Assembly (NCBI GenBank): GCA_000091205.1
Contig: AP006498.2
Direction: 5' to 3' (one strand)
DNA length: 64,000 bases
From: Cyanidioschyzon merolae
Taxonomy: Eukaryota
Both the position numbers and the translations under genes were made by a program. The notes under the pieces were generated by a model. That model was not told the DNA's origin. It saw only the letters and a list, made by a program, of their open reading frames with translations, and did no database searches. Numbering within the stretch: position 1 is the stretch's first letter; each line of letters opens with the position of its first letter. Below, one piece after another: positions 8,517 through 24,384 of the stretch.

Positions 8517-9500
8517 TCATCGAGGAGAGTCTTCGATTGGATCACGCGAATCGGTGCATTCGGTTGGGCCCCAGGGCATAGGTCGATTTTGCAAACGCTC
8601 CTGTCTCCTTTGCAAGCGCTCAATCACGAGCATAAGTTCCGTATCGGGCTCGAGCGAGCCTATGGATACCGTGGCGACGCAGCCGGCAACTGGACAAGGT
8701 GCTGCATGCCTGTCCGTGAGACGTTCACGGGCTCGCAAACGGTTGTGGGCTCTGATGAGCTGCTCTATGCTCTGCTTTTCGTATGAGTGCTGGCAATCGC
8801 GGTTCCGGAAGGGTTGCTGCATGACTACGCCAGAAACGGGGCAGCGTATTCGAGAAGCATCTGGTTCCCAGTCAGCGGCTACATACGTCGGGGCGGTTGA
8901 ATCACCGACAATAGGGTCTGGGCTCGCTTGCTGCGTAGCGGCGAGTGACGGATCACTCAGGCTATCCGCCGAAGCTGACTGCATCGTGCCGCCTTCAACC
9001 AGGCGACGGACCTTGTCACGGTTCCGCTCCGTTATTGTCTCTCCCGAGCTAGCGCTTCTTGCCGACCTTCCCGTCTCTTCAAAACGCCGCCACGTGTCCG
9101 TGAAAGACTCTGTCGTCTGCCCTTCAGTCCCTGTTGGTGTTGGTTCCTGGCAGGAGAGAAGCGCCTCGCGAACTTTCCGTGCAGTTCGGAGGATATTTGC
9201 AGCCTCTCTCTCTCCGGTAACGCACTGCGAAGCAGCCAACGAGAGACTCTCCAGCGTACCAGCTTGCGAGGCCGCACTGGGGCCCTGACAGACTGCCTCC
9301 GGGTTCGCAGGCGCTCCTCCGAGAAGGCACCGAGATGCGCTCACCAAATGCTCCGAGAGGAGCACGCTTCGCGTCTTCCACGCAGTGGTGAAACGCTCAA
9401 TATCGGCCAGTGAGGCCTCAAAGTCAGGACTTTCAACCGTTGTGCCTTCCGCAATGGATTTGGCAAGTTCTAGTATTGAAGCCTCGCCGCTACGCTCCAT
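8517..9500 (-). CDS. NSE2: NSE2/MMS21-type SP-RING SUMO E3 ligase (SMC5/6 complex subunit)
   Basis: The C-terminal CPVSGVVMQQPFRNRDCQHSYEKQSIEQLI...APCPVAGC...L.PD..L matches the Nse2 SP-RING (CP.T..P....C.H.[FY][ED]K..I......CP..GC). ATG confirmed at 9500. The plus-strand ORFs 7902..8786 and 8326..9288 overlap it antisense and have no recognisable domains. Confidence 0.7.
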   Translation of the reverse strand: MERSGEASILELAKSIAEGTTVESPDFEASLADIERFTTAWKTRSVLLSEHLVSASRCLLGGAPANPEAVCQGPSAASQAGTLESLSLAASQCVTGEREAANILRTARKVREALLSCQEPTPTGTEGQTTESFTDTWRRFEETGRSARSASSGETITERNRDKVRRLVEGGTMQSASADSLSDPSLAATQQASPDPIVGDSTAPTYVAADWEPDASRIRCPVSGVVMQQPFRNRDCQHSYEKQSIEQLIRAHNRLRARERLTDRHAAPCPVAGCVATVSIGSLEPDTELMLVIERLQRRQERLQNRPMPWGPTECTDSRDPIEDSPR

Positions 9501-11505
9501 GTCTGGTTCTTCTTACAAGAGGTGAGCGTATCGAAGAAGACCTCCGCCTATCTACCTGCCTGTCTGCCAAACAAATATTGACGGAACCCAACCGCTTTCC
9601 AAACCAGGCGTGCCACAAGTCTAACAGTACTCTTCGGGCAAGTTTCCAGGTTTTGGCGCCACATCCTACGCGCTTCCGCAGGGTGCGTTTCATTCAATGC
9701 CGGTACACGGCTGCAGGCTTTCGTCGTACAGGCGGAGCTGCGTTCCCTTACTCCTCCACTTTGGAAACAACCTCTGCGTTATCAGAGAGAAAGGCTTGAA
9801 CTGCTGTGTCCTTGACGTTCATCGCGATGTTCGTTTATTTGCAGAGTTTCAGTTCTGCTCGCATGAGGCCAGTTGCAATATGCAAGGCACAATAGTGTCG
9901 GACTTGTACACTTTGTCGTTAATTATGCAGCACTGCAGGCAGGAACTCTCGCGAGAATAGTTAATGGGAGGGGGGTTGGAACTGTGAAGTGCCTCAACAC
10001 GGCATGTGCCGGTGACTCGGTTTGTCATGTTCTTCAGCAACCAGGTAGGCAGCCTCTGGGAGTCATTTTGTGCCGCTGCAAAAGAACCACCTTGCACCAG
10101 GGAAAACGTTCTTGTTTCCGTGAAACAAAAATAGGCGAATCTTAGGACAAAAGTAAAGATCGGTCTCTGTGATATAAAATCAGCCTCCGAGTTACCTGCG
10201 AGGAATGTGGAACTCGTGGAAAACAGCGGTCCTTTATGAGTGAAAGCCGTTGCATTCCACATGCAACGCTTTTCCGGTAGCGAATTCGGGTCCAGGTACC
10301 TCAATGTACATCATCGACTTGTAATTAATCAGACAGCGCTGTGGCGGCCACGTAGGATGGTAGATGCGTGCGCTCCTGTCCAGGCACGAAACTGTCAGCG
10401 CTCGCCTCTGTCTCCACGCCAGCTCACGGATGGTGCGATACCATGCTACGACTTGCATGAGATTCATGCACTGAAGAAGAGAAGCATGAGACAAGTCAAT
10501 TCGTAGTGGCATGCAGGCACAGACTCGTTCTATCACAAGCCAATGTTCCCTGTGCTGAAGCGTTCTTCAGGAGAATCAAAGTATGCCACCGCGCTACCCT
10601 GAGCGTTTTGGCTCCGTGCCTGTTCTGCCGCCTTCACCAAGCCGGGGCTCGAATCATTTCGATATCCTTCGGATGCTTGCTAGTGCGTTACGGGCATTTC
10701 CAGAGCACCGATGCGAAGCTGACTTCTGCTCCAGTGCCTCGGCATTGAAGTCTGTGCTCGCATGCGTTGACGAAGAATACACGGCGCGTTCGAAACTGAC
10801 GCGCCGTTTCCGGCCAATATCCCAGACGGACAGAGCTCTTCGCGGAGTCATTACTCTGGTGAACGCCACGCAACGCAGCTATCATGCGCCCGAAGACGGG
10901 ATTCGACCGTACCCAAGAGCGCCCCTGCCCAAGTGCGGCACACATCTCGTAAATGGATCCCATGTGATGGCCTCTTGTAGCGAAACTGCTACCGGATACG
11001 TTATCCGAGGCGAAACCTCGGCAAATGCCAAGATACACCGGCGTTTGCGACCAGTTCAACTGTCCCGGAGTGTGACTGCAAATCTTCGTAGAATATAGAG
11101 ATTCCCATCGCAACATATCTTTGTCTGGGCGGAAACGTTTGCAAAGTAGTTCTCCACGGAGCGACTCTTGGTGGGCGTTTCCCGCCACGGAGCGCAAACT
11201 GGCCCCTTGGGTGCGGCTTCCTGATGGCACTGTAGCTGCGCGACATGTGTGTGCGAACGAGTCGTTCCTGGGTACTATGATGTACGGAAACATGACAGTA
11301 ATGATTGCTTTCCCTGCATGGGGCCTCTTCGTGTTGTCGGCTCGCTTTCTGTGGCCCAGGGCTCTGCTAATTTGATGTCTGACGAAAATGGAAATCGTCC
11401 AATAAACTAACTCGGACGTACATGCGAAATTTTTGGATCTTTCCGCAGTCATCAACACCAGCCTTGGCGGATTCTCTGTGACTGCTTCCATTAGATTTCT
11501 CGTAG

Positions 11506-11965
11506 CTACGACTTTAAATACGCCGGTCGATCACCTCCCTCAAGATCTGTCGTCAGAGCTCGACGGATATTGATGCCAGCATTAAAGTCCCGATTTCGCC
11601 GTCTCAGGCTGGTGCCAACGCATGCCATGCCCAGGCAAAAGTTGCGATCTTCGCTTTGTCTGCCATCTCCATTTTCTCTCCAGAGCAGCATCGATACGCC
11701 CTTCGCAGCAGCGACTCTTGGTAATGGTCACGCTTTTCCTGTTTGTCCAATACGCTTCCTCCTCTGAGCGCCGCCCTGTGGCGCGTGAACGCTTGCCCCA
11801 ACGCTCACAGCACATGCACGTGCTGGGTACAGAACCATCCCGCAAGTGCCGTCCTCCATCCACGCGCCCGGTACCGTACCCTGTGATCGACAGCTTATTC
11901 CGGGTAAGTCTGCGGCAGGTGCTCTGCCCGCTGAACACGAAAGCGCACGCCACTCTATTCGACAA
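11506..11965 (-). pseudogene. TnpB/Fanzor-like C-terminal remnant (zinc ribbon plus RuvC-III), frameshifted
   Basis: SVPSTCMCCERWG resembles the TnpB motif pSSkTCsnCG. In a second frame, RNFCLGMACVGTSLRRRNRDFNAGINIRRAL resembles RtFtCpnCG...DRDvNAAiNI. The upstream ITGYGTG sits at the RuvC-II position without the Glu. Confidence 0.5.
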
Positions 11966-12160
11966 AGGATTTGTGGATCGCGATGTTGTTCACGATGAAA
12001 CAAGTTCCGGACGGGAAACCCGCAGCAGCCAGAAGACTGAGGAGCTTCGAACAATCCACGCTACACTGGTGCAACGCGGTGACGCACTCTGCGCTGGGGG
12101 CGAGCGCTGACGTCAGTGCGAGTCCAAGACACTTCTCCGTGCAAGCAGAAGCGCTGGAGC

Positions 12161-12220
12161 CTCCGAGAGCCTCCGAGAGCCTCCGAAAGCCTCCGAGAGC
12201 CTCCGAAAGCCTCCGAGAGC
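12161..12220. repeat. 10-bp tandem repeat (ctccga[g/a]agc) x6 inside R1 copy 1, with only x2 in copy 2 at 19996..20015
   Basis: Direct reading of the sequence. The 40-bp length difference is the only indel between the two near-identical copies. Confidence 0.9.
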
Positions 12221-12664
12221 ATACCCCCAAGAGAGATATCGTGCTGTTGTCGAACCCTATTTCGTGGATGGCCACACAGAGTAGAGAATAACTCCTTCGG
12301 ACGGAATAGATCGTTCGGCGTTCGCAGTCCAGTCCGGAATCGGCACAAGCTCGCGAAGGAGTCCTCAAGGGAAGGCGTCGAGTTTTTTGGTCGCCAGTCC
12401 ATCAGAGCAGATTCCTACGCGCTCGGGTAGCCTCGAAACCAGAGAACTCTAAAAATTGAAGAATGCGTCATTTGAGCATATTACTCGTAAGGAAGGAGTA
12501 TGAGTGGCGTCTTCTGCGTATGAATTGGATGATGGTATCGGTTATTTTACGAACCCTTTTACGGGGACGTCGCGAATGACCGTGACTCTGGGGATGAAAC
12601 GCAGTCCAGCGGGAACGAGTCGAAGGGGTCATTCCGGAAAGACCACCGATGATCCTGGAGTTAT

Positions 12665-14935
12665 ATGAAAATCCCAAACCGATTGCTGCACTTTGCATGC
12701 CGAGGACGTGCAGCTAAAAGAATTTCGGGAGAATTGCAAGGCAGGAAGAGAGCGAAGAGTTCAGTGTTTCATTTGAATCTGGCTCGGCTGTTGTGCACTC
12801 GTCCAGAGGAGGCACCGAAATGCCTCGGAGAACGCTCGCACTGCACTCATCTTAAGGGACTCGTGGCAATGGACTTCAAAGACTTGGTTGCTCTCCGTTG
12901 TGAACTTTCTGTGCAGAGTCTGACAGAAGTTTCGGCTGCACTCCGCCGCGTGATTCTGAGCAAGTCCTACTACGAGTATCAGGTAACTAGAGCGCCCCTG
13001 CGGAGTTTCCTCAACAACGGACCGCTATGGATTTTCCAGACTCTGAGCGGTGCAGGCAGCCTATGGGTATCAAACTTTTACGACACTTGCCGGGATCTCA
13101 TCGCGTCGGGAACGAGACCGGCAACAGGCACTTCCAGTTCTGCGGCGGGCGGCGCGCCAGCGAGGGCCTCACCGACCAGGGCGAGCGATAAAACAGAAAA
13201 GAAAAAGGCTCGGAGGCTGCTGGAGCTATGTCAGGCCGCACAGCCACCGGGGCTTCGCTCTTTGTGTGAACTAGAAAGGGCCCGATGCCAGGCTGCTGTG
13301 CATGCTCTCGGCCGTCTCGAGCGAGCCTTAGCAGTGTATCTTGGAAGGGCCCAGGAGGAGCTTTCTCGTCTACGAAGTTTAGTCGAGAAAGATCCTCAAA
13401 ATAGTTCTGAGTTGCGGGCACTCTTTCTCTCTTGCGACGAATTGCATCACCGTACACTAACAGCGCTGGAAGCAACCGATGTGGATGCTATCGAGGAGGC
13501 TGTTTACGCCCACTTGTTGGTCGATTCTGACGTTCTGGCTGATCTGGATCGCTGGGCTTCTATAATGAAAGAGGATGCAGAACGATTCATTACGCTCCTG
13601 CGCGATGTTCCGCGTAGATGGAACGTCTATTTGACTCTGGAAGAGCTCAGTCGCATCATGCCTGCGGCAGGACGTCAGTCCGGAAAGCGCCGCGGTCTGG
13701 GCTTCATCGAGCGATTGCAAAGGGTTTCGCTCATTTACCCATCGCACTTTGCGAGAAACTGGATACGCTACCTGTGCGGTACCCTGACCATCTTCTGGTC
13801 CTGGACGAAAATCAGCGCACATCGCGAGCATGTGATGCATATCGCACTGAGCGTACGTCAGGTTGTGAGAGGCTTCTGGGACGAGCGCATTATTACCCCG
13901 CTCACCATGATCTACAGGGAAATCTTTCAATCGTCGTATCGAACATTCATGGATCCGAAGGCGGTTCAGGCTGAGAAAGAGACCTTGAAGCGCATGGTTG
14001 TGGATTTTACCCGGGAGGCCTATGCGCGCCTCCCGGACGACCAGCGACAGGAAGCTGAACTTCTGGCTGCAAATGGTGATCTCACACCGGTCATGAAAGT
14101 CTACGAACGCCAGATTCGCAGCCCTGTGGTGAATATGCTTGCTGGTGACGTGATCAGAGCATTACTCATACAAGTCCAGAAACTCAAAGTTGATGTCGAG
14201 CAGGAGATGGTCGCTGTAGACTCCTTGGTTCGTTCGAACGAGCTCAATCTCCAGATCGCTGCTGCCGTTCCAGGCGTTCTTGGATGTTGCCTAGCGGTCG
14301 CGCTCCTGTACCGCTGGTTCAGGCGTTGGTGGTCGAGTATTCGCCTCACTGAAGTAGATCGTTTCGGAGGTGGCGGATATCTCTGGGCCAACGCCTTCGC
14401 CGAGAAGCTTCCCACCCGTGAGCGGGCCCGCCTCTTGCTACGAGATATCGAACGCTATCTGGTGTTGACGCTTTCGCTACGCGGCCCTGAAGCAGCTTCT
14501 GCGAGGCTTCAAGAGACGCCTCTGCTCCAGAAAGCACAAGTGCTCAACGGGAGAGCGCCGGCTTCGTTGGCGTCCGCTTCTCCGGAACGTGTGCAACGAG
14601 TATCAGATCGAACGCTCGCGACGTTCTTCCCTGGCGGTCTCGCTCAGGGTGAAACTGGCGAGAACCTCAAAAGCAGTGAAAATAGTGTGATTTTTCTCTC
14701 GACGGCTTGCATTGCTGAGTACGAAGACAAAGGACGTATTCTTCTCACCCTGGACGAACTGGAGGCCATGGTAACGAGCCGCGCTGGAGAGTTTGGGATC
14801 AGCCGCGGCTCTCAGCTGGAGACTCGCCTACGTGAAGATCTTTTGGACCTGAGATCATTCGCTCTCGACGCTGAACAAAAACTGCTCACAATCCTTCGAA
14901 TGCGCTCTACATATCCCTTTTTATGGGATCGCTAG
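12665..14935 (+). CDS. NCA2-like (nuclear control of ATPase 2 family) membrane protein; the first 39 codons come from the R1 repeat, so the true start may be ATG 12869
   Basis: A 756-aa uninterrupted ORF. VRGFWDERIITPLTMIYREIF and VDSLVRSNELNLQIAAAVPGVLGCCLAVALLYRWF (a TM segment) recall conserved NCA2-domain blocks (gFW.nWv.eP...I..ti; ksNELnF...vaP). This is recalled from memory and not verified. ATG at 12665 lies inside the repeat; the same start in copy 2 gives only the 71-aa ORF 20460..20675. Confidence 0.4.
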   Translation: MKIPNRLLHFACRGRAAKRISGELQGRKRAKSSVFHLNLARLLCTRPEEAPKCLGERSHCTHLKGLVAMDFKDLVALRCELSVQSLTEVSAALRRVILSKSYYEYQVTRAPLRSFLNNGPLWIFQTLSGAGSLWVSNFYDTCRDLIASGTRPATGTSSSAAGGAPARASPTRASDKTEKKKARRLLELCQAAQPPGLRSLCELERARCQAAVHALGRLERALAVYLGRAQEELSRLRSLVEKDPQNSSELRALFLSCDELHHRTLTALEATDVDAIEEAVYAHLLVDSDVLADLDRWASIMKEDAERFITLLRDVPRRWNVYLTLEELSRIMPAAGRQSGKRRGLGFIERLQRVSLIYPSHFARNWIRYLCGTLTIFWSWTKISAHREHVMHIALSVRQVVRGFWDERIITPLTMIYREIFQSSYRTFMDPKAVQAEKETLKRMVVDFTREAYARLPDDQRQEAELLAANGDLTPVMKVYERQIRSPVVNMLAGDVIRALLIQVQKLKVDVEQEMVAVDSLVRSNELNLQIAAAVPGVLGCCLAVALLYRWFRRWWSSIRLTEVDRFGGGGYLWANAFAEKLPTRERARLLLRDIERYLVLTLSLRGPEAASARLQETPLLQKAQVLNGRAPASLASASPERVQRVSDRTLATFFPGGLAQGETGENLKSSENSVIFLSTACIAEYEDKGRILLTLDELEAMVTSRAGEFGISRGSQLETRLREDLLDLRSFALDAEQKLLTILRMRSTYPFLWDR

Positions 14936-16112
14936 CAGCTGTGCTACCGTATTGTTCCCTGCGATCCTGCACGTTATGCGCTCATCCAGTGCCCTGCGAC
15001 CGCTTGCCACTGAGTGCTTCTGTATGTTTTCACTCTGTACCTGCAATTCGTGCGCTCTGCCAAGCCTCTGTTATCGCTCGCCACTGAGTGCTCCTGTACG
15101 TTTTCACTTGGAGCCTGCATCTGATGCGCTCATCTCATCCATAGCGCATTGGTGAAAGACAAAGTCCTTTCTCAGAGGTATTTTTAAAAAGGCTCTTACG
15201 GATGAAAACTGTTCGTATGTGCACCGCAGTGGTGCCCATCGTTTTTTTTTTCGAGTCGGAAAGTGCTCTCGCTCTATCGCCTACCCCACCGGAACTAATA
15301 CTGCATACATCGTTGTCTCCAAAAGAAACGTTCCAGCGCTTGCCACGCAGTCTGTTGTACGTATTTCGTACAAGTGATGCATCGCGTCAACGATGGCACT
15401 CTGCCAGACTGCATTTCGTCGTTTCCAGGGCCTAGCACCCAGGGTCCGTTGAAGTGGGTCGCTGTTCGTCGCATGCAGCACGCAACCGGCATCGAAGAGA
15501 GTCACTGGAAACTACTCGAGGAGCAGTGCCTGCCTCTCGCTGCTAGATCCATTTACAGCTGTCGCAACTTGTTATGGCCATAATGTCCATGGAAACCGAA
15601 AAGCTACGGTAGGCAAGTAATATGTAACTGCATCGAATGCAGTGGTTGCAGCACCTCCATCGTAGCAGCAGTCAAACGATCATGGCGCTGCTCCTTTGGC
15701 GCATAACGCATAACGCGCGGGCGCATAGACTTGCATCTGTGTTGCCATCAATGCTCGTTTATTCCGTCGGGATTTCGAAGCGCCCACGATCGCAGTGGGA
15801 GGAGTACGAAACATGTGAAAGCACCAGATGCCGAATCAATCTCCCGTCCTCGAATTTGCACATGAAACCGTGGGATTCGTGCGTCTCCACAAGCCCTGGC
15901 TAATTTAAGATGCGCTTCTTGAGACATTTTTGATTGTGTGCCGTCTAACGCCAGCGTGGGCAACGTGAACGAGCCTCCAAGCTAGGACGCGACATTTTTG
16001 TCTTCTACACACATGCGAACATACATGGGAAAGGGTCTCGTACCGCTGGCGTACGCTCTAAAGATTGGGTCTCTCCCCATTGTAATCAACATGAGCCTTT
16101 GGGGGCTTCTCA

Positions 16113-17235
16113 GCGATTGTTTCCGCTTCCTCTCTCCTGTCCACGCCATTCGGTACACTAGTCGCTACAGTTCCGTTATCAGCTGTTGGAAGATGTGGAT
16201 GGCAGTGACAAAGACCCGATTTCGCTCCTTCTCGCTGTTGTCGACGAATGCAGTGCAGAGGCGGCAGTTACAACCTGCGCTTCTGTTGCTATTTTCAATT
16301 TTTTTGTTTACAGCCTCGGTTCGCCCTTCGCAGCAGTGGTACTTGACTGCCGTCACGTGTTCTCGTACGTCCATCTCACTTTTACCTCGAGCACCGCCTT
16401 GTGGTGCGTGACGGTTGCTTCATCACTCAGAACATGCCGTGGGCTGGTACGGAGGACTCCCCATAATGTCCTTCTCCGTTTCCGCACCTGGTCCCGTACC
16501 TAACGATTACGGACTCCTTCTGGGCGGTACAAACGGCGAGTGCTCTGTTCCCTGCACATGCGAGCGCATCCTGTTCCATTCGATAGTTGATGTTTAGAAA
16601 GAGACGTTGTCCATAATGAACCGAGTGAAGGAAAAATATTTCAGGCCGGAGATCAAGTCGGGATACTTAGATCCGTCTACGCCCTCGGCATGGGAAACGG
16701 TGACTCACGCTCCACTGGAAGCGATCGCTGGAATGCCTCGATTCCCAGTCCAGGAACTTTTCCATGGAAACAGAAAAGACGGGAATCGCTGGATCCGCAA
16801 TCGGTGAGAGGTTCATGCTGCTGCCGAATCCTGTATTTCGGATAGCCTGAAAGAGAGAAGGATTTACCTTTCGAACAGAGTCGATCATTAAATGTGACAA
16901 GTTAAGCGAAATTTCAGCATGAACTTCTTAACAAGGCCCTGATGGACGTTGTCGAGTTTTTCTCTCGCCAATCTAGCTATGCGAAGGGTTGCGACAACAA
17001 AGTTGCCTTCAAACAGCAATATGGAAAACTTGAGGAACGCATGATTTGAGCATGGAACACCTAGTGACTTGGGAAGATTGGAGGCTTGCGCGTGTGAACT
17101 GGATAATGATATCGTCTATTTTACGACCCGCCGTTCGAAGGCGTTGCGAATCATCTTAATTCGTGTGAAGTTACGAATTCCAGCAGCAAATAGTCGAAGA
17201 CGCCATTCCGAAGACACAACCGAGAATTCTAAAAT
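16113..17235 (-). mobile_element. R1 element copy 3 (diverged, about 1.1 kb), same orientation as copies 1 and 2
   Basis: Plus-to-plus DNA homology to copy 1 over 11441..12650, for example aaagacccgatttcgctcc versus aaagtcccgatttcgccgtc. The end module 16900..17225 aligns with 12340..12650. The minus ORF 16165..16374 carries KYHCCEGRTEAV...CNCRLC...RNRVFVTAIHIFQQL in a single frame, matching the copy-1 pieces RCCEGRIDAA / CLGMAC / RNRDFNAGINIRRAL. It starts with TTTCCGCTT. Confidence 0.6.
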
Positions 17236-17406
17236 CTACATATGAACCAGTAAGTCCTCACAGCTGTACTTTAAAATGTCGATGCTTAACGTCTAAAAAC
17301 AAGTGCGAATAAAAGTCGAAGTGCAGGAACATTGCGAGTAGTCCAGCGTTCCATTTTTAATCTGACGCAGTTGTGGAGGGACAATGAATCCCGGAGCGAC
17401 TTTGCC

Positions 17407-18436
17407 ATGCCAGAGCTGCCAGCAGTTGAGCGGGCTCGTCGTATGATCGATGCCTTATGTAAGAGCTATAGACGGATAAACGTTCAATCCGCACCCGATC
17501 CGAAACATGCCTCTGAGTTTGTGGACAAGCTTTTCGAAGGCAGGCTGGGGCTGGACCTGCTCGAGCGACGTGTCTGCGTAGGTCATGTGCTGCGGCAACT
17601 TGGCCGTCACGGCAAGAACCTGTGGTTTGAGTTCGACGAACCTCCCCACGTTTTCGTCCGCTTTCGAATGGCTGGCTCTTTCGTGGTTCGTGGTCACGAA
17701 GACGGCTACGTTTATGAGACTTTTCGCCGACGTACTGCCGCCTGTCGGTTCCACGACTCAGGAACGCCCCTCGTCTCAGTCTGGCCACCGAAGCATACAC
17801 ACATTGTTTTTAGTTTTGCTCCCTGCTCCCCAGGAGTAGATTCTGCCAGTATAAACGGTATCTCTGTCCGAGAGTTCGCGCTGGTCGACCCGCGAAAGGT
17901 TACGAGGATGCGCCTCAGCGACTCGTCGTGTCCTTCTGTCGAGATTCGAAGCCTCATAGGAGGCTTCGATGCGCTGCATGCGCTCCCTCCTATTGAGCGC
18001 TTCGAAAGGAAAATGTTAGTGTACCCGAAAGCGAATATCAAATCGTTGCTTTTGGGCCAGCGCTTCATCGCTGGGCTCGACAATTGGATGGTCGACGAAG
18101 TTCTTTATTACGCTCATATTCACCCGGAGAGTCGCACTTGTGACCTCACTCGTATCGATGTTGCAGCATTGCATCAGAGCATCGCATAAGTTGTGCGAAG
18201 CTCGTGTGATGCAAACGCAGACTTGGCCCTTTTCCCCTAAGACTGGCTCTTTCATATCCGGTGGCAAGGAGCAGCGAAAAGGAGACGCGGCCGCGACATG
18301 CATCAAGTCGTTATTACAGCAGACGGGAAAAGCAAATTTCATTCATGCTAGCGGACGTACAGCGGTATATGTACCCTCTCTGCAAAGAAAACGTGGCCAT
18401 GCCCGAAAGGTTTGCCACACAGACGCCGGCGCATAA
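17407..18436 (+). CDS. FPG: Fpg/Nei-family (formamidopyrimidine-DNA glycosylase, H2TH) base-excision repair enzyme, plant/fungal zincless-finger type; needs a short intron (about 18160..18220) or a +1 frameshift
   Basis: The N-terminus is MPELPAVERARRM (canonical Fpg MPELPEVE with catalytic Pro2; ATG at 17407). The H2TH block is DNWMVDEVLYYAHIHPE. ORF 1 stops at 18189, but the +1 frame (18221 onward) encodes TWPFSPKTG...ASGRTAVYVPSLQ, matching the Fpg C-terminal beta-hairpin (gGRsTffCPqCQ) with the Cys residues replaced. A candidate 61-nt intron is GTTGCA...AAACGCAG at 18160..18220; the exon phases fit. Confidence 0.75.
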
Positions 18437-18516
18437 CAGTTGAAAACGTTAAAGTGTCTTCTCTTGCTGACTCGGACGAGCTTGCGTATTTCAAGTGAAG
18501 GACTTTTCACGCTTTG

Positions 18517-19191
18517 ATGCCTCGCATAAAGCACGCTTCAACGAGCGACGGAAGGAGCAAGACGGTGACAACGCATGGCAAAGGAGGCTCTTCCACAGTG
18601 CGCTCGAGCAGAGCCTCCGCACGCGCCGGCACTGATGCACCTCGAAGCCTGGCCCGCACTGGGGGCGCGCAAGACCACAACTTGCGGCGTTGCAGCAGCG
18701 AATCAACAGAGGCTCTCTCTGATTCGGACACGAGCTGGAAGCGAAGCGACGCAGAGAGCGCGGACGAGACCAGTGGGGAGCACGACCGGTCAGCCACGCG
18801 GAAGCGTAAGCAAACCCAAGTTAGCGGAAGCGCAGTGAACGGCAAGAGAGCTGTTCGCGGAAATGGCGTAAGAGAGCTTGAACAGCCCACTGCAGCTGCC
18901 GCAACCGTGAAAACAGAGGCAGCTTCTCTGAAAAAAAAGCCCGCTGACAGTGCGAAAAAGTTGAAAGCATCGGAGGTCACCTTCGTTTTCGATGAACTTC
19001 GCAATGATCAACGTTTTATTACACCTCGCCAGCTCATGAGGGCAATCATGTGTCAAATGGGGCAACAAGAGGCTGAACAAATGACTGACAGCGACATCAC
19101 AGCGATGATTAGACTAGCCGACACCAACGGAGACAACAGAATCGACAGAGAGGAGTTTGAGAATTTTGTACAGAGAGAAATCCGTCTCTGA
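18517..19191 (+). CDS. small basic protein with a C-terminal EF-hand
   Basis: The C-terminus has an EF-hand loop DTNGDNRIDREEFENFV. The N-terminal half is basic and Ser/Ala-rich. ATG at 18517 (the ORF track starts at TTG 18514). Confidence 0.45.
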   Translation: MPRIKHASTSDGRSKTVTTHGKGGSSTVRSSRASARAGTDAPRSLARTGGAQDHNLRRCSSESTEALSDSDTSWKRSDAESADETSGEHDRSATRKRKQTQVSGSAVNGKRAVRGNGVRELEQPTAAAATVKTEAASLKKKPADSAKKLKASEVTFVFDELRNDQRFITPRQLMRAIMCQMGQQEAEQMTDSDITAMIRLADTNGDNRIDREEFENFVQREIRL

Positions 19192-19273
19192 ATATACCAC
19201 TAAACCTATGCTCCATAAGTATGAAACGAGTCCTATCTGGACAATTCTGGTTTGCATATTCAAGTTTCTGTCC

Positions 19274-20583
19274 CTTTCCGCAGTCATCAACACCAGCCTT
19301 GGCGGATTCTCTGTGACTGCTTCCATTAGATTTCTCGTAGCTACGACTTTAAATACGCCGGTCGATCACCTCCCTCAAGATCTGTCGTCAGAGCTCGACG
19401 GATATTGATGCCAGCATTAAAGTCCCGATTTCGCCGTCTCAGGCTGGTGCCAACGCATGCCATGCCCAGGCAAAAGTTGCGATCTTCGCTTTGTCTGCCA
19501 TCTCCATTTTCTCTCCAGAGCAGCATCGATACGCCCTTCGCAGCAGCGACTCTTGGTAATGGTCACGCTTTTCCTGTTTGTCCAATACGCTTCCTCCTCT
19601 GAGCGCCGCCCTGTGGCGCGTGAACGCTTGCCCCAACGCTCACAGCACATGCACGTGCTGGGTACAGAACCATCCCGCAAGTGCCGTCCTCCATCCACGC
19701 GCCCGGTACCGTACCCTGTGATCGACAGCTTATTCCGGGTAAGTCTGCGGCAGGTGCTCTGCCCGCTGAACACGAAAGCGCACGCCACTCTATTCGACAA
19801 AGGATTTGTGGATCGCGATGTTGTTCACGATGAAACAAGTTCCGGACGGGAAACCCGCAGCAGCCAGAAGACTGAGGAGCTTCGAACAATCCACGCTACA
19901 CTGGTGCAACGCGGTGACGCACTCTGCGCTGGGGGCGAGCGCTGACGTCAGTGCGAGTCCAAAACACTTCTCCGTGCAAGCAGAAGCGCTGGAGCCTCCG
20001 AGAGCCTCCGAGAGCATACCCCCAAGAGAGATATCGTGCTGTTGTCGAACCCTATTTCGTGGATGGCCACACAGAGTAGAGAATAACTCCTTCGGACGGA
20101 ATAGATCGTTCGGCGTTCGCAGTCCAGTCCGGAATCGGCACAAGCTCGCGAAGGAGTCCTCAAGGGAAGGCGTCGAGTTTTTTGGTCGCCAGTCCATCAG
20201 AGCAGATTCCTGCGCGCTCGGGTAGCCTCGAAACCAGAGAACTCTAAAAATTGAAGAATGCGTCATTTGAGCATATTACTCGTAAGGAAGGAGTATGAGT
20301 GGCGTCTTCTGCGTATGAATTGGATGATGGTATCGGTTATTTTACGAACCCTTTTACGGGGACGTCGCGAATGACCGTGACTCCGGGGATGAAACGCAGT
20401 CCAGCGGGAACGAGTCGAAGGGGTCATTCCGGAAAGACCACCGATGATCCTGGAGTTATATGAAAATCCCAAACCGATTGCTGCACTTTGCATGCCGAGG
20501 ACGTGCAGCTAAAAGAATTTCGGGAGAATTGCAAGGCAGGAAGAGAGCGAAGAGTTCAGTGTTTCGTTTCAGTCTGAAGGTTG
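19274..20583 (-). mobile_element. R1 element copy 2, near-identical to copy 1
   Basis: The six-frame ORFs are identical to those of copy 1 (for example the 61-aa MLLWRENGDGRQSEDRNFCLGMACVGTSLRRRNRDFNAGINIRRAL... and the 162-aa ORF). The only differences are the VNTR count and roughly 3 SNPs. It diverges from copy 1 immediately after ...agttcagtgtttc. Confidence 0.75.
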
Positions 20584-20804
20584 TAAAGTGCGATTGGTCA
20601 ACGATACTTGCACTGCCCATCAAGAGAGTTTTACGGATCATCGTTTCCCCACCGCTGCCAAAAATTTGCAACTAAGCATTGCGAGCTGGATCATGTTCTA
20701 CATCGTGTAAAATCGATCCGCACTTGTCCAACAGAGGCATTCGTCCGTGCCCCTGAACGAAAGCCTCGCCTGGAATTCTCAACGTGAAGGTTCTCCCGTC
20801 CGTG

Positions 20805-21650
20805 TTAAAACACGTTTGGAATGAAAGCCTTCACTCGCGCGGCATACTCTTCATACTCTTTGCCGAAGCGCTCAATAAGATATTTCTCCTCTTCAGTTGC
20901 TTTGCGAGTGAAGAAGTAAAACAGCGCTAACGTTAAAACTAAACGTTCCGGAGAATGCGAAACCGTTGAAAATCCAAAACTGGTCAGAACTATCCCAGTA
21001 TAGATCGGATGCCGCATGAGGCCGTACAAGCCGTCAGTTTTCAGAGCGGCGCTCGCCGGCGGCTTCACCCAAGGCACAAAATTCTCAGGACCGAGCTCTC
21101 GGATAGCCTGCACGACAACGTATATGCCCAGGAAAAGAGGCACAGGCCCCATAAGGAAACCGAAGACGGGATCAAGTGCTCCTGGATCGCGCAAAATCAG
21201 TAGTATGAGAGCAAGTTGTATAACAACGTAAGTCTCACCGCGATTGAACCATTCGCCGGCCACCGTGTTGTCTAAGACTCTTTTCCAGTATGCAGCTGAA
21301 TCACGAGAAAACTTTTCCACGTCGAAATTAGCTATTTTCTTCGAAATTGCTTCGGGTATTTTCTCGATGCTTTCCAATACCTTTTGCAGTTTCTCTCCCA
21401 GTTCAACAGTTACAGACTCGTTTGCTGGAGTCGCATCTACAATTTCAGGTGCGCTTTTACTCGCTTTAGGCGCTTCGTCGACCTTCCGCATCAGCAGCGT
21501 TGCTCGCTGTGCACGCGAACTTGGAGTACAAGCCAAACCAGTCCTCCCGGAGTGCCGGCGGCTCGTTGATCGCCCCCACAGTGGCGAGAGCGTTTCACGA
21601 CACAGTGCCGCTGGCACAAAGGCAAGCTCATCTCCCGCAAGAAAAGTCAT
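20805..21650 (-). CDS. phospholipid / isoprenylcysteine-carboxyl methyltransferase-family (PEMT/ICMT-like) membrane methyltransferase
   Basis: The C-terminus GLYGLMRHPIYTGIVLTSFGFSTVSHSPERLVLTLALFYFFTRKATEEEKYLIERFGKEYEEYAARV matches the PEMT/ICMT SAM-binding region (RHP.Y.G......G ... EE..L...FG..Y..Y). The ORF-track start at 21830 is TTG. Candidate ATGs are 21800 and 21650 (MTFLAGDELAFVPAAL, transit-peptide-like), so the start is uncertain. Confidence 0.6.
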   Translation of the reverse strand: MTFLAGDELAFVPAALCRETLSPLWGRSTSRRHSGRTGLACTPSSRAQRATLLMRKVDEAPKASKSAPEIVDATPANESVTVELGEKLQKVLESIEKIPEAISKKIANFDVEKFSRDSAAYWKRVLDNTVAGEWFNRGETYVVIQLALILLILRDPGALDPVFGFLMGPVPLFLGIYVVVQAIRELGPENFVPWVKPPASAALKTDGLYGLMRHPIYTGIVLTSFGFSTVSHSPERLVLTLALFYFFTRKATEEEKYLIERFGKEYEEYAARVKAFIPNVF

Positions 21651-21761
21651 TTGTGGCTGTACTCTGCGTCGCGAACGTTCTCTCTCGGGCTCTTTGTACA
21701 GGCGTGACACCCGCACGTTCTGTCGACGCCGCAAATACGCGCCATACATTGTCATACACTT

Positions 21762-21910
21762 CATGCGATCGACATGGACAAGGCGTCCGTGGCACTCCAT
21801 TGGTGCAGGTATGTCTGTAAATGTACACAACTAGCGATACGCATCATGCGAGCGACACGGACAGGGCGCCCGTGGCAGCACATTGGTGTATAAATGTCTA
21901 ATAAGGTACA
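21762..21910. repeat. imperfect tandem duplication of about 70 bp, upstream of the methyltransferase gene
   Basis: catgcgatcgacatggacaaggcgtccgtggcactccattggtgcaggtatgtctgtaaatgtacac is followed by catgcgagcgacacggacagggcgcccgtggcagcacattggtgtataaatgtctaataaggtacac. Confidence 0.8.
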
Positions 21911-22016
21911 CGGCAAGGTCGCCGCGTGTCGCTGCGTCGCCATTCCGCGAAATAAGCTACTGTGTGCAGCGCTCGACGCTGGAGTGGGGCGTTATCGTTC
22001 GTTAGGCTCGTGAGTC

Positions 22017-22370
22017 ATGGTGCGTGCGACCAAGCAGGCTTTACTAAAGGAAGACGTTACAAGAGAGTACACGATCCACCTTCATAAATACATCCACAGC
22101 GTCGTATTCAAAAAGAGAGCACCGCGAGCGATCGCAGCAATAAAGGCGTTCGCACGACGGACCATGGGTACCGAAGACGTGCGAATCGACGCCAAAGTCA
22201 ATAAGGAAGTGTGGAAAAATGGCATTCGGGGCGTTCCAAACCGTGTGCGTGTCCGGCTCTCGAGGAGAAGAGCGGATACGGATGCGTCCAAACCGAAGCT
22301 TTACACGTACGTGACACTCGTGCCGGTAACCAGCTTTCGAGGCTTGCAGACCGTGAACGTAGATGAGTAA
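22017..22370 (+). CDS. RPL31: 60S ribosomal protein eL31 (L31e)
   Basis: The full-length 117-aa protein [85 protein letters not shown]... is an unmistakable eL31. ATG confirmed at 22017; single exon. Confidence 0.95.
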
Positions 22371-24384
22371 CCTATTGAAGCCAAGCTGTTCTTTCCACTC
22401 TCAACAGGGCTAAGCCTCGTTCGCAGTCTGTCTTATGGAAGAGTCGGAAGAGTGCCCATGGGATTCAACAAGGATGCGCGCACATATTGCGAGGCGCACT
22501 TCAGAGGGACGCGCTGCATGGTCGCGGCCTACGCGAGTCAGTGCGGGCAGTCTCAGTTCGGCTTTTCTACGGCATTTTCTTACGACAACGCTCGGCTCAA
22601 AGTATTTGTGATTGAGAGCTGAGGCAGCCGCGGGATACCATGTGTATCGAGAAGTACTGTGGGCCTTGTGGAATAGTAGCATTCTGCACATGGGAGCTGC
22701 AGTTGTTTCCGCTTTCAGCCTAATGCCCTGCTATTTCACATCGACAAAGATGTAAGCCTCCTTGATTTCTGAGGAAATTTCCCTATCTCGGTGCTTTTTA
22801 CAGAGCTTCGAGCTTACCGTGTCTATCGCGTTCGAGGCGCAGGGCAAGGCGCTCAGCGGATGGACGACTCTTTGTACGTGTCATTTCGTGATAAAGCAGG
22901 GAATACACATCGAATGTTCTGGCCAGCGCTGTCCACGGGCATGGCGTCCAAATAAAGCTGAGGATATGGAATCCATAGCGTGCATACGCCTTCTTGGTTC
23001 CAGAGCGTGCTTCCCGGTAGCGTGTCGACGTGTGCGGACTGTTGTGGGTGCGGAAGTAATCCTATGCAAACCGCGTTCCGTCTACGTGCCAGGGCAATGT
23101 GTGTTTCCGGTGCGGCATAATATATTGCTCAGAGTGGCGTGTGTCCATGAGAACCCCAAAAACTTGGTAAGCAGCATGGGCAAACTTCTCTCTGAAAGTG
23201 GCTTGAAAAAGTATCGTCTGCTGTACCTGGAACAAGTCGACTTGTAGCTGCCGGCTAAATGCTCCAGTCTCTGATTGCACATGAAACACGCTGCGTGGAA
23301 ACGCTACTTGTCATGACGTGGGACGCATGCTGCTATGAAAGTTGACGCCAAGTGGTATGCCGTTCGTTTCCGTTCCGCTTTGCCTGTACCGCCTCGAGGC
23401 ACATACCAGCATATATGTATAGCCCTTGGAGCTTCGTTGCGCATCGAGCTCTTGATAATTGGATGTCTTCATAGCCTTGGAAATTCTCGGCAAGCACGTT
23501 ATGCGGCTCTGAAATCTTGCACGACGAGCGAATGGATTCCCATACATCACTGGTTCAAGCCTCGAGCGAAAATTTGCCCCAGAATTGATGACGAACACAG
23601 ATGTAATCATGCACAGGCGATCTAAGTGTCGCCTTGACAGTCATCCATGGAGCGGACTTGCATGAACAGCGCATACAGTAAACTAGAAACTCGTTGATCC
23701 TCGAGAGCTGTATGTAGCGAGCTTGGGCTGGAAACCGAACAACGACTTGGTGTTCTATGCAGTTAGATTTTATTTCGTTTGATCAAATTCCCTTCAAGTG
23801 CGCGTTGTGGTATCCCCGAGAAGCGGTGGCTGAACGTTGACTTTCGCCCGGCCTGTCACACCGCTGCGTGATACAGTCCTGTAGCGCATTGGCCTGTCAA
23901 ACCATGGACTTTTTGCGCTGCAGTGGAAACAGCGGTATTCGTGGCACGATCCTTGTTTGCAGCGCTGCAATGCCCGATAACTTGCGCGATGGCGCATCCG
24001 CTACCGCCATCCAGCCTAATGTATGAGGCGTGTCGTCACCCGTCTAAAGACACTGCATTAACAAACCAGTATGCCTCATGCGCTCCACTCTATAGTGTCA
24101 AATGTGTGGCGATCTTGTGGAGCCTTAGTCTCGCCAACGATCCTGGTGACGCACGGAGGTCCCGTATTCTACGATCCAGTGCAGCTTTCTTGGAAGCTGC
24201 CAAAAGCACCCATCATAACTAAATCTCTCAAGTTGTCGAAGGTTGCATACTGGAGGGTTTCTGGGTCATCTGTCCAATCCAGATAAGAATACCTCACCAC
24301 GAACAGCCCAGCAGAAGGTCACAAAGCGGAAAGTAAGCACAGTTATTCGGACCGCTCTTTATCGCGCTCTTTCAAGTGCCCCGA

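What the first reader, a model, noticed from the sequence alone, without database searches (positions are those of the whole stretch)
18157..18225. The Fpg glycosylase gene is split: the C-terminal zincless-finger beta-hairpin is encoded in the +1 frame after the annotated stop
ORF 1 (MPELPAVERARRM ... H2TH DNWMVDEVLYYAHIHPE) ends at 18189 without the C-terminal DNA-binding hairpin that all Fpg/Nei proteins have. The +1 frame from 18221 encodes TWPFSPKTGSFISGG...ASGRTAVYVPSLQRKRG. This is the plant/fungal zincless version of gGRsTffCPqCQ. A 61-nt intron GTTGCA...AAACGCAG (18160..18220) joins ...LTRID to TWPFSPK... in phase and would be one of very few introns in the window. The alternative is a genuine +1 frameshift in a pseudogene, or a sequencing error. 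Either way the ORF-track annotation of 17332..18189 is incomplete.
Basis: seen in the sequence. Interest (0 to 1): 0.5.

Follow-up and report, generated by a model that had tools for sequence, protein, structure and literature searches.

The report
Decaying Fpg repair gene, not intron
The DNA-repair gene for Fpg glycosylase in the red alga Cyanidioschyzon merolae is a recently dead gene, broken by two premature stop codons and a two-base deletion. It is not a gene interrupted by an intron, so the finding is an ordinary pseudogene that the public annotation presents as a 260-residue protein.

Summary
The sequence facts are correct. The Fpg ORF (ATG 17407) stops at TAA 18187-18189, and the zincless-finger hairpin (…ASGRTAVYVPSLQRKRG) lies downstream in the +1 frame.

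The proposed 61-nt intron (18160-18220) is not supported:
- Intact, intronless, syntenic orthologues align with frame 0 straight through the "intron" and on to 18330 (54% identity over 57 residues).
- The +1 frame matches orthologues only from 18329.
- The real lesions are TAA at 18187, TAA at 18241 and two missing bases in the A-run 18328-18331.
- The "intron" starts GTTGCA and has no ACTAACC branch site, against the near-invariant Cyanidiales signals GUAAGU and ACUAACC.
- Two wild haplotypes mutate its GT to TT.
- 303 chance GT..AG pairs would bridge the two frames equally well.

The window is C. merolae 10D chromosome 16, and the ORF is BAM81801.1. Across 25 distinct metagenome contigs, TAA-18241 is fixed, TAA-18187 is polymorphic with CAA, the A-run is A4 or A5 but never in frame, and one contig carries a further 23-nt deletion. 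Polymorphism looks neutral (pN/pS about 1.1) and is five times denser than in the neighbouring gene.

Verdict: a recent pseudogene, probably unitary, of low interest.

The parts
17407..18189 (+). Annotated remnant ORF (260 codons plus TAA). It holds the Fpg N-terminal catalytic domain (MPELP..., GK70) and the H2TH motif. It equals C. merolae 10D BAM81801.1 / XP_005537837.1.
   Evidence: ORF. (PF01149 60.8 bits, PF06831 46.3 bits). (exact match to BAM81801.1).
18160..18220 (+). It is really frame-0 coding remnant (VAALHQSIA*VVRSSCDANAD), homologous to orthologue residues 250-270.
   Evidence: colinear homology. (GTTGCA, no branch site). (18160 G>T in L010 and L011).
18187..18189 (+). Premature stop 1 (TAA). 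It is polymorphic in nature: CAA (Gln) in 8 metagenome contigs, which then give a 277-residue product. Orthologues have TAC (Tyr) or TCT (Ser) here.
18190..18330 (+). Frame-0 coding remnant after stop 1 (VVRSSCDANADLALFP*DWLFHIRWQGAAKRRRGRDMHQVVITADGK). It matches orthologue residues 260-306.
   Evidence: a single tblastn HSP, residues 1-306, E = 7e-112, running to 18330. (54% identity over 57 residues).
18241..18243 (+). Premature stop 2 (TAA). It is invariant in every metagenome contig that covers it. Orthologues have TCG (Ser) or CGG (Arg).
   Evidence: no variable column at 18241-18243. (all 277-residue variants end here)..
18328..18331 (+). Frameshift site. The A-run is A4 here, and two bases are missing compared with the orthologues (GGG AAA A-- GCA against GGA AAG AAG GCA and GGG AAA AGA GCG). 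Some haplotypes have A5, with one base missing. None is in frame.
18329..18436 (+). Remnant of the zincless-finger beta-hairpin, in the +1 frame (KANFIHASGRTAVYVPSLQRKRG...), followed by the ancestral stop TAA 18434-18436.
   Evidence: matches orthologue residues 307-328, E = 4e-6 to 6e-6. (aligns to 3TWL ...FITAGGRTTAYVPELQ).
18079..18081 (+). GAC (Asp225), where all 118 homologues have Gly, in the H2TH G-x-G-N-W motif. The change is fixed in all C. merolae haplotypes. Similar departures from invariant columns are Lys164 (17896-17898, Arg in 100%) and Arg85 (17659-17661, His in 99%; His is still present in other haplotypes).
   Evidence: column conservation. (haplotypes).

Best explanation
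The locus is a recently inactivated pseudogene of the plant/fungal-type (zincless-finger) formamidopyrimidine-DNA glycosylase in Cyanidioschyzon merolae, probably the only copy. The ancestral gene was a single intronless ORF of about 343 codons (17407-18436).

Three lesions now break its 3' quarter in strain 10D:
- a nonsense codon at 18241 (TAA), fixed in all sampled natural haplotypes;
- a deletion in the run GGGAAAAGCA (18328-18331), which puts the hairpin out of frame: two bases are missing in 10D and one in other haplotypes;
- a younger C-to-T nonsense mutation, CAA to TAA at 18187, which still segregates in nature.

If the ORF is translated, translation stops after 260 residues (277 in CAA haplotypes). 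That product keeps the catalytic N-terminus and H2TH but lacks the DNA-binding hairpin with its invariant Arg, so I infer it is not a working glycosylase.

Shown: the lesions, their reproducibility, the intact syntenic orthologues, and the neutral-looking polymorphism.
Inferred: loss of enzymatic function, the order of the mutations, and the absence of splicing or recoding.
For: Identity and reproducibility
- The window is C. merolae 10D. The 260-residue product equals BAM81801.1, and the 2406-residue ORF equals CMP188C.
- The 1,220-nt stretch 17301-18520 is 100% identical wherever covered in five independent metagenome contigs, from JGI and ENA.

Orthologues
- They are intact, intronless and in the same gene order: zf-Nse, NCA2, FPG, EF-hand, PEMT, L31e, NIF/BRCT.
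- P0002 has 342 residues (L012-L014). The Cyanidiococcus yangmingshanensis copy is in GCA_026122185.1 (L015).

Colinearity
- tblastn of P0002 gives one frame-0 HSP covering residues 1-306, running through both TAA codons to 18330.
- The +1 frame takes over exactly at residue 307.
- The codon alignment shows the two missing bases.
- Arabidopsis FPG1 (3TWL) aligns without a break over the same stretch.

Population data from 26 loci, 25 distinct contigs
- TAA-18241 is invariant.
- Position 18187 is T or C.
- The A-run is A4 or A5, never in frame.
- L016 adds a 23-nt deletion (17856-17878), giving a 188-residue product.
- All 22 members of the 90%-identity cluster were read and 15 listed. The listed lengths are 260, 277 or 119 residues, none longer.

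Relaxed constraint
- There are 14 SNPs in 1030 nt, 11 nonsynonymous and 3 synonymous, giving pN/pS of 1.05-1.15.
- SNP density is about 5 times that of the 764 nt downstream (Fisher p = 0.02).
- There are substitutions at columns that are 99-100% invariant in 118 homologues: G225D, R164K, H85R.

Other copies
- No second protein labelled C. merolae is among the 120 best Fpg-family hits.
Against: - The first 260 codons are still open, and the catalytic residues are intact: Pro2, Glu3, Lys70, Asn226 and Arg318 of the repaired model.
- A relative-rate test shows no long-term acceleration in the C. merolae lineage: 22 against 18 unique changes, p = 0.64. The decay is therefore young, and a residual role for the truncated product is not excluded.
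- pN/pS rests on only 14 SNPs. Metagenome contigs can be chimeras of co-occurring strains.
- No expression data were available to me.
- The rest of the genome was not searched at the DNA level for another Fpg/Nei copy.
Confidence: 0.9

Rival explanations
1. One reading: a 61-nt GT-AG spliceosomal intron (18160-18220) is removed, joining ...LTRID to TWPFSPK... and yielding a functional 322-residue Fpg with its hairpin.
For: The arithmetic works. The segment is 61 nt long, has GT and AG ends, and gives an open frame from 17407 to 18436 after removal. C. merolae does have a few introns: 39 by RNA-seq according to bioRxiv 10.64898/2026.05.17.725761.
Against: - The "intron" is colinear coding sequence in frame 0, and so are the 110 nt after it.
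- The spliced product would lose about 20 conserved residues and replace FP-x-WLFHIRW...VVTADGK with unrelated +1-frame sequence.
- The Pfam H2TH score falls to 38.6 bits, against 51.5 for the read-through model.
- The donor GTTGCA has 4 of 6 mismatches to GUAAGU.
- There is no ACUAACC; the best match has 3 mismatches. There is no ACTAACC anywhere in the gene.
- Orthologues have no intron at this position.
- The donor G is mutated to T in L010 and L011.
- 303 alternative GT..AG pairs do the same bridging job by chance.
Confidence: 0.02
2. The truncated protein of 260 or 277 residues (N-terminal domain plus H2TH, without the finger) is expressed and kept for some residual or new function. In that case the locus is a shortened gene rather than a pseudogene.
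For: The ORF is open from the ATG, and the catalytic Pro2, Glu3 and Lys70 are intact. It is found unchanged in many samples. The preprint suggests C. merolae may lack functional nonsense-mediated decay, so the transcript could persist.
Against: - Within the 260-codon ORF the SNPs are 8 nonsynonymous to 2 synonymous, which gives pN/pS of about 1.3 using the site counts.
- Invariant H2TH and N-domain residues are replaced: G225D, R164K, H85R.
- One haplotype truncates the product further, to 188 residues, through a 23-nt deletion.
- From established knowledge of Fpg/Nei/NEIL1 structures, the finger Arg contacts the lesion-strand phosphates and is needed for activity.
Confidence: 0.06
3. Translational recoding produces full-length Fpg: read-through of two UAA codons plus a +1 ribosomal frameshift on AAA-A at 18328-18331. 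A non-standard genetic code would be a variant of the same idea.
For: AAA AGC allows tRNA-Lys to re-pair in the +1 frame. This is a sequence-level inference only.
Against: - The standard code is clearly in use. ORFs of 2406 and 1645 codons are uninterrupted, and TAA terminates the orthologues and the neighbouring genes.
- Three independent recoding events would be needed within 150 nt.
- Haplotypes differ in the shift they would need: A4 needs +1, A5 needs -1 or +2.
- The TAA at 18187 is polymorphic with an ordinary CAA codon.
- The orthologues need no recoding.
Confidence: 0.01
4. Sequencing or assembly error in the reference genome.
For: Homopolymer length errors are common in general.
Against: Where they cover it, independent JGI and ENA metagenome assemblies L001-L004 and L006 are 100% identical to the window over 17301-18520. 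All 25 distinct contigs carry TAA-18241 where they cover it, and every one that covers the A-run has it out of frame.
Confidence: 0.01

Closest known systems
Arabidopsis thaliana FPG1 (PDB 3TWL/3TWK), the plant/fungal zincless-finger Fpg subfamily
   Same: The domain order is the same: MPELPEVE catalytic N-terminus, GKNLW lysine, H2TH (G-x-G-N-W-x-A-D-E), then FP-x-W-x-FH-x-R and a Cys-free hairpin (GGRTTAYVPELQ against SGRTAVYVPSLQ). phmmer gives E = 2.6e-33 for the repaired model, with the alignment unbroken to residue 281 of the chain.
   Different: The C. merolae copy is not an intact gene. It has two in-frame TAA codons, a 2-nt deletion before the hairpin, and Asp in place of the invariant Gly of G-x-G-N.
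Orthologous intact FPG genes of related Cyanidiales: P0002 (342 residues, metagenome and NCBI) and Cyanidiococcus yangmingshanensis CCYA05G1576
   Same: They sit at the same chromosomal position between NCA2 and an EF-hand gene. They share 47-50% identity with the window sequence, are colinear residue for residue, and have no intron.
   Different: The orthologues are uninterrupted ORFs. The C. merolae copy has the three lesions. The Cyanidiococcus annotation starts 12 codons too late, but the gene itself is intact.
Unitary pseudogenes (loss of a single-copy gene in situ, for example GULO in primates)
   Same: Disabling mutations sit at the ancestral syntenic locus. No retroposition or duplication is involved. 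Polymorphism looks neutral, and further lesions are accumulating in different haplotypes.
   Different: This one is very young. Three quarters of the ORF is still open, one nonsense mutation is still segregating, and no lineage-wide rate acceleration is detectable.
Cyanidiales spliceosomal introns (39 in C. merolae)
   Same: Only the GT and AG dinucleotides at the ends of 18160-18220.
   Different: It lacks the GUAAGU donor and the ACUAACC branch site, its content is conserved coding sequence, it is absent from the orthologues, and its donor is mutated in wild haplotypes.

Membership tests
Fpg/Nei (H2TH) DNA glycosylase superfamily | N-terminal catalytic Pro2-Glu3 directly after the initiator Met, and a conserved Lys in the G-K motif | tested here: met
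   MPELPAVE starts at 17407. G69-K70 (GKNLW) sits at columns that are 100% conserved in 118 homologues. PF01149 scores 60.8 bits against a cut-off of 25.5.
Fpg/Nei (H2TH) DNA glycosylase superfamily | Helix-two-turn-helix motif with G-x-G-N | tested here: inconclusive
   PF06831 scores 46.3-51.5 bits against a cut-off of 34.7, and Asn226, Trp227 and Asp230 are kept. However, the Gly that is invariant in 118 of 118 homologues is Asp225 here.
Fpg/Nei (H2TH) DNA glycosylase superfamily | C-terminal zinc or zincless finger with the invariant Arg, in the same reading frame as the rest of the protein | tested here: not met
   The hairpin sequence, including Arg (GRT), exists only in the +1 frame from 18329. 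It lies downstream of two TAA codons.
Plant/fungal zincless-finger FPG subfamily | No Cys4 cluster; the hairpin aligns to the zincless finger of AtFPG1 | tested here: met
   This applies to the ancestral (repaired) sequence. ...FIHASGRTAVYVPSLQ aligns to 3TWL ...FITAGGRTTAYVPELQ, and the C-terminal 60 residues contain only one Cys. Pfam PF21218 is only weak, 12.8 bits against a cut-off of 27.1. P0002, P0004 and most other homologues also lack a precomputed PF21218 hit.
Spliceosomal intron of Cyanidiales | 5' splice site GUAAGU | tested here: not met
   The donor is GTTGCA, with 4 of 6 mismatches. The consensus comes from bioRxiv 10.64898/2026.05.17.725761. The donor G is T in L010 and L011.
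Spliceosomal intron of Cyanidiales | Near-invariant branch site ACUAACC upstream of the AG | tested here: not met
   The best 7-mer in 18160-18220 has 3 mismatches. The only ACTAACC matches in the window are at 24875 and 32268.
Spliceosomal intron of Cyanidiales | The interior is not part of the conserved protein, and removing it restores colinearity with orthologues | tested here: not met
   The interior encodes orthologue residues 250-270 in frame 0. Removing it destroys colinearity.
Spliceosomal intron of Cyanidiales | Split reads in RNA-seq, or listing among the 38 intron-containing genes | not testable with these tools
   No RNA-seq access. The preprint's Supplemental Table S6 is not held.
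Unitary pseudogene | Disabling lesions compared with intact orthologues at the syntenic position | tested here: met
   There are two nonsense codons and a 2-nt deletion, compared with the intact L012 and L015 in the same gene order.
Unitary pseudogene | The lesions are real (reproducible), and no intact allele is seen in the population | tested here: met
   Across 25 distinct metagenome contigs, TAA-18241 is fixed and the A-run is never in frame. No listed cluster member is longer than 277 residues.
Unitary pseudogene | A neutral pattern of variation | tested here: met
   pN/pS is 1.05-1.15 from 14 SNPs. SNP density is about 5 times that of the adjacent gene, p = 0.02. Power is low.
Unitary pseudogene | No other functional copy in the genome | not tested
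The genome outside this window could not be scanned.

The most novel reading that the evidence does not exclude
C. merolae has lost its only Fpg-type glycosylase recently, and the loss has consequences or is adaptive. Possible effects are a changed oxidative-damage mutation spectrum in a hot, acidic, metal-rich habitat, or a retained function for the truncated N-domain plus H2TH product. The segregating TAA/CAA and A4/A5 alleles would then offer a natural series for watching the stepwise death of a DNA-repair gene.
Probability: 0.08. Interest if true: 0.45.

Novelty: new member of a known kind. Interest (0 to 1): 0.2.

Why it matters
The main value is for annotation and for anyone using C. merolae as a minimal-genome model.

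- The database entry "similar to formamidopyrimidine-DNA glycosylase" (BAM81801.1, 260 residues) should be read as a pseudogene remnant. Inventories of base-excision repair in this alga should not count Fpg as present.
- It is a cautionary example. In an intron-poor genome, a GT..AG pair that repairs a broken frame is expected by chance. It should be tested against orthologue colinearity and against the very strict splice signals of this lineage.
- The population data give a small but clean picture of ongoing gene decay: one lesion fixed, one segregating, and extra deletions in single haplotypes.

Tried and rejected
1. My first placement of the frameshift was near 18262-18268, based only on the Arabidopsis alignment. 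I rejected it once the close orthologues showed frame-0 homology continuing to 18330.
2. A stop-codon reassignment (UAA as Glu or Gln) looked possible because the first TAA aligns with Glu in AtFPG. I rejected it because long uninterrupted ORFs and normal TAA terminators show the standard code, and because the site is an ordinary CAA/TAA polymorphism.
3. The search for an intact allele found none. It used one metagenome scan (4 loci), exact-protein look-ups and a cluster listing.
4. A relative-rate test for long-term acceleration was not significant. A local control using neighbouring genes showed FPG at the divergent end but not an outlier: identity between Cyanidiococcus and the window is 46% for FPG and 53-85% for the neighbours.
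5. Literature searches for a report of this gene or pseudogene found nothing relevant.
6. The list of RNA-seq-defined introns (Supplemental Table S6 of the preprint) is not held, so I could not check directly that this gene is absent from it. The long-read paper does not name genes on this chromosome.
7. An Rfam scan of 9000-24000 gave no hit.

Full report
**What is in the sequence.** The ORF listed at 17332..18189 contains an ATG at 17407 followed by MPELPAVERARRM. It ends at TAA 18187-18189, which gives 260 residues. Pfam recognises the Fpg N-terminal domain (PF01149, 60.8 bits) and the H2TH domain (PF06831, 46.3 bits), but no C-terminal finger. The +1 frame is open from 18140 to TAA 18434-18436 and ends ...KANFIHASGRTAVYVPSLQRKRGHARKVCHTDAGA. 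The stretch 18160-18220 is 61 nt, starts GTTGCA and ends CGCAG.

**What the region really encodes.** I translated the ORF frame onward past the stop. It reads ...LTRIDVAALHQSIA*VVRSSCDANADLALFP*DWLFHIRWQGAAKRRRGRDMHQVVITADGKSKFHSC*.
- A protein search with a read-through model found two intact relatives. One is P0002 (342 residues, 48% identity, 100% coverage). The other is Cyanidiococcus yangmingshanensis CCYA05G1576 (46%).
- tblastn of P0002 against the window gives a single HSP in one frame, covering residues 1-306 (E = 7e-112). It runs through both in-frame TAA codons and ends at base 18330.
- Taken alone, frame 0 from 18160 matches P0002 residues 250-306 at 54% identity over 57 residues with no gap.
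- The two frames therefore hand over exactly at the A-run 18328-18331. The codon alignment reads GAC GGG AAA A-- GCA AAT TTC in the window, GAC GGA AAG AAG GCA CAG TTC in L012, and GAC GGG AAA AGA GCG AAG TTC in Cyanidiococcus. Two bases are missing.
- The first TAA (18187) aligns with Tyr or Ser codons in the orthologues, and the second (18241) with Ser or Arg codons.
- Arabidopsis FPG1 (PDB 3TWL) aligns without a break across the same stretch, including the zincless hairpin.

**Source and orthology.** The exact 260-residue product is BAM81801.1 / XP_005537837.1, "similar to formamidopyrimidine-DNA glycosylase", of Cyanidioschyzon merolae 10D. The 2406-residue ORF at 54078-61298 is CMP188C. 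The window is therefore chromosome 16 of that red alga. The orthologues lie in the same gene order (zf-Nse, NCA2, FPG, EF-hand, PEMT/ICMT, L31e, NIF/BRCT) and are single uninterrupted ORFs. In Cyanidiococcus the true start, MPELPSVERARR, lies in frame just upstream of the annotated Met.

**Not an error, and not an intron.**
- The 1,220-nt stretch 17301-18520 is 100% identical wherever covered in five independent metagenome contigs from JGI and ENA.
- According to the RNA-seq-based catalogue in bioRxiv 10.64898/2026.05.17.725761, Cyanidiales introns have a strongly conserved GUAAGU donor, a virtually invariant ACUAACC branch site and an AG acceptor. C. merolae has 39 introns in 38 genes.
- The proposed intron has GTTGCA, with 4 of 6 mismatches. 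Its closest approach to ACTAACC has 3 mismatches. The only two ACTAACC sites in the window are elsewhere.
- In two wild haplotypes (L010, L011) the donor G at 18160 is T.
- 303 GT..AG pairs in this gene would give an open frame into the hairpin, 30 of them with a donor at or after 18100.
- I could not inspect the preprint's intron table or any RNA-seq reads.

**Population picture.** I collected 26 C. merolae-like loci, 25 distinct contigs, from metagenomes and SRA assemblies and aligned them to 17100-19200.
- TAA at 18241 is invariant.
- Position 18187 is T (TAA) in 16 of the metagenome loci, as in the window, and C (CAA, Gln) in L007 and L016-L022. The CAA haplotypes give the 277-residue products that end at the second TAA.
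- The A-run is A4 or A5, never a length that restores the frame.
- L016 carries an additional 23-nt deletion (17856-17878), which truncates the product to 188 residues.
- Of the 22 members of the 90%-identity protein cluster, the 15 listed are 260, 277 or 119 residues long, none longer.
- Within the 1030-nt gene there are 14 SNPs, 11 nonsynonymous (counting TAA/CAA) and 3 synonymous. With 778 nonsynonymous and 245 synonymous sites, pN/pS is 1.15, or 1.05 without the stop site.
- SNP density is about five times that of the 764 nt downstream, which is mostly the EF-hand gene (Fisher p = 0.02).
- Three residues depart from columns that are 99-100% invariant in 118 homologues and conserved in both close orthologues. 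They are Gly to Asp225 in G-x-G-N-W, Arg to Lys164 in DPRR, and His to Arg85. His85 is still present in other haplotypes.

**Age.** A relative-rate test against several outgroups shows no excess of changes on the C. merolae branch: 22 against 18 with the consensus outgroup, p = 0.64. Identity to Cyanidiococcus is 46% for FPG and 53-85% for the four neighbouring genes, so FPG is at the low end but not an outlier. The preprint gives a genome-wide average amino-acid identity of 65% for this species pair. Together with the still-open first 260 codons and a nonsense mutation that has not yet fixed, this points to recent inactivation. The likely order is TAA-18241 and the A-run deletion first, since both are present everywhere, and then CAA to TAA at 18187. 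This ordering is an inference. All four combinations of 18187 and A-run alleles occur, which needs recombination, recurrent slippage or chimeric assembly.

**Mechanism.** Nothing is spliced or recoded. If the locus is transcribed, ribosomes stop after 260 residues (277 in CAA haplotypes). The product keeps Pro2, Glu3, Lys70 and the H2TH, but lacks FP-x-WLFHIRW and the beta-hairpin with the invariant Arg. From established structural work on Fpg, Nei and NEIL1 (my own knowledge, not tested here), that Arg binds the damaged strand and is needed for activity. I therefore infer loss of glycosylase function. A residual role for the truncated protein cannot be excluded, but it is not supported: SNPs within the ORF are 8 nonsynonymous to 2 synonymous, invariant residues are replaced, and one haplotype is shorter still.

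**Comparison and novelty.** The ancestral gene belongs to the plant/fungal zincless-finger Fpg subfamily, and its closest solved structure is AtFPG1 (3TWL). The present locus fails the family's requirement of a finger in frame. It meets the criteria for a pseudogene at the ancestral locus, although whether another Fpg-family copy exists elsewhere in the genome was not tested. I found no paper describing this pseudogene, and the public annotation presents it as a protein. The kind of object is entirely ordinary, so interest is low. Its value lies in correcting the annotation, in correcting the inventory of base-excision repair for a model alga, and in showing how a chance GT..AG pair can mimic an intron.

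Noticed in passing
window 11439-12781 and 19274-20576: This is a direct segmental duplication of about 1.3 kb (99.0-99.9% identity) that brackets the NCA2-FPG-EF-hand block. The first copy includes the first 117 nt of the NCA2 coding sequence (ATG 12665), so a fragment of the NCA2 start is repeated at about 20460-20576. The 162-residue ORFs 11622-12110 and 19457-19945 are duplicates of each other.
   Followed up: partly
window about 19991-20015 (and 12180-12197): A 10-nt tandem unit (GAGCCTCCGA-like) differs in copy number between the two duplicate copies. It also differs between the window and metagenome haplotypes, which carry insertions of 10 or 20 nt.
   Followed up: no
L015 5965-6000 (Cyanidiococcus yangmingshanensis JANCYV010000005.1): The annotated protein CCYA05G1576 starts at an internal Met. 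The catalytic N-terminus MPELPSVERARR is encoded in frame immediately upstream, so that annotation is 12 residues short.
   Followed up: yes
window 17478, 17660 and 18187 across L001-L030: All four allele combinations occur between SNPs 500-700 bp apart, for example 17660 G/A with 18187 T/C. This suggests recombination in natural C. merolae populations. Chimeric metagenome assemblies could give the same pattern.
   Followed up: no
window 14936-17406: The 2.4-kb spacer between NCA2 and FPG has no long ORF and no Rfam match. It is SNP-dense, with about 16 variable sites between 15244 and 17406 among six haplotypes. The corresponding spacer in the orthologous loci is about 1.4 kb.
   Followed up: no
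L016 (Logan SRR29605867), corresponding to window 17856-17878: One natural haplotype carries an extra 23-nt deletion inside the Fpg N-terminal domain, giving a 188-residue frameshifted product. It is a single contig and was not independently confirmed.
   Followed up: partly
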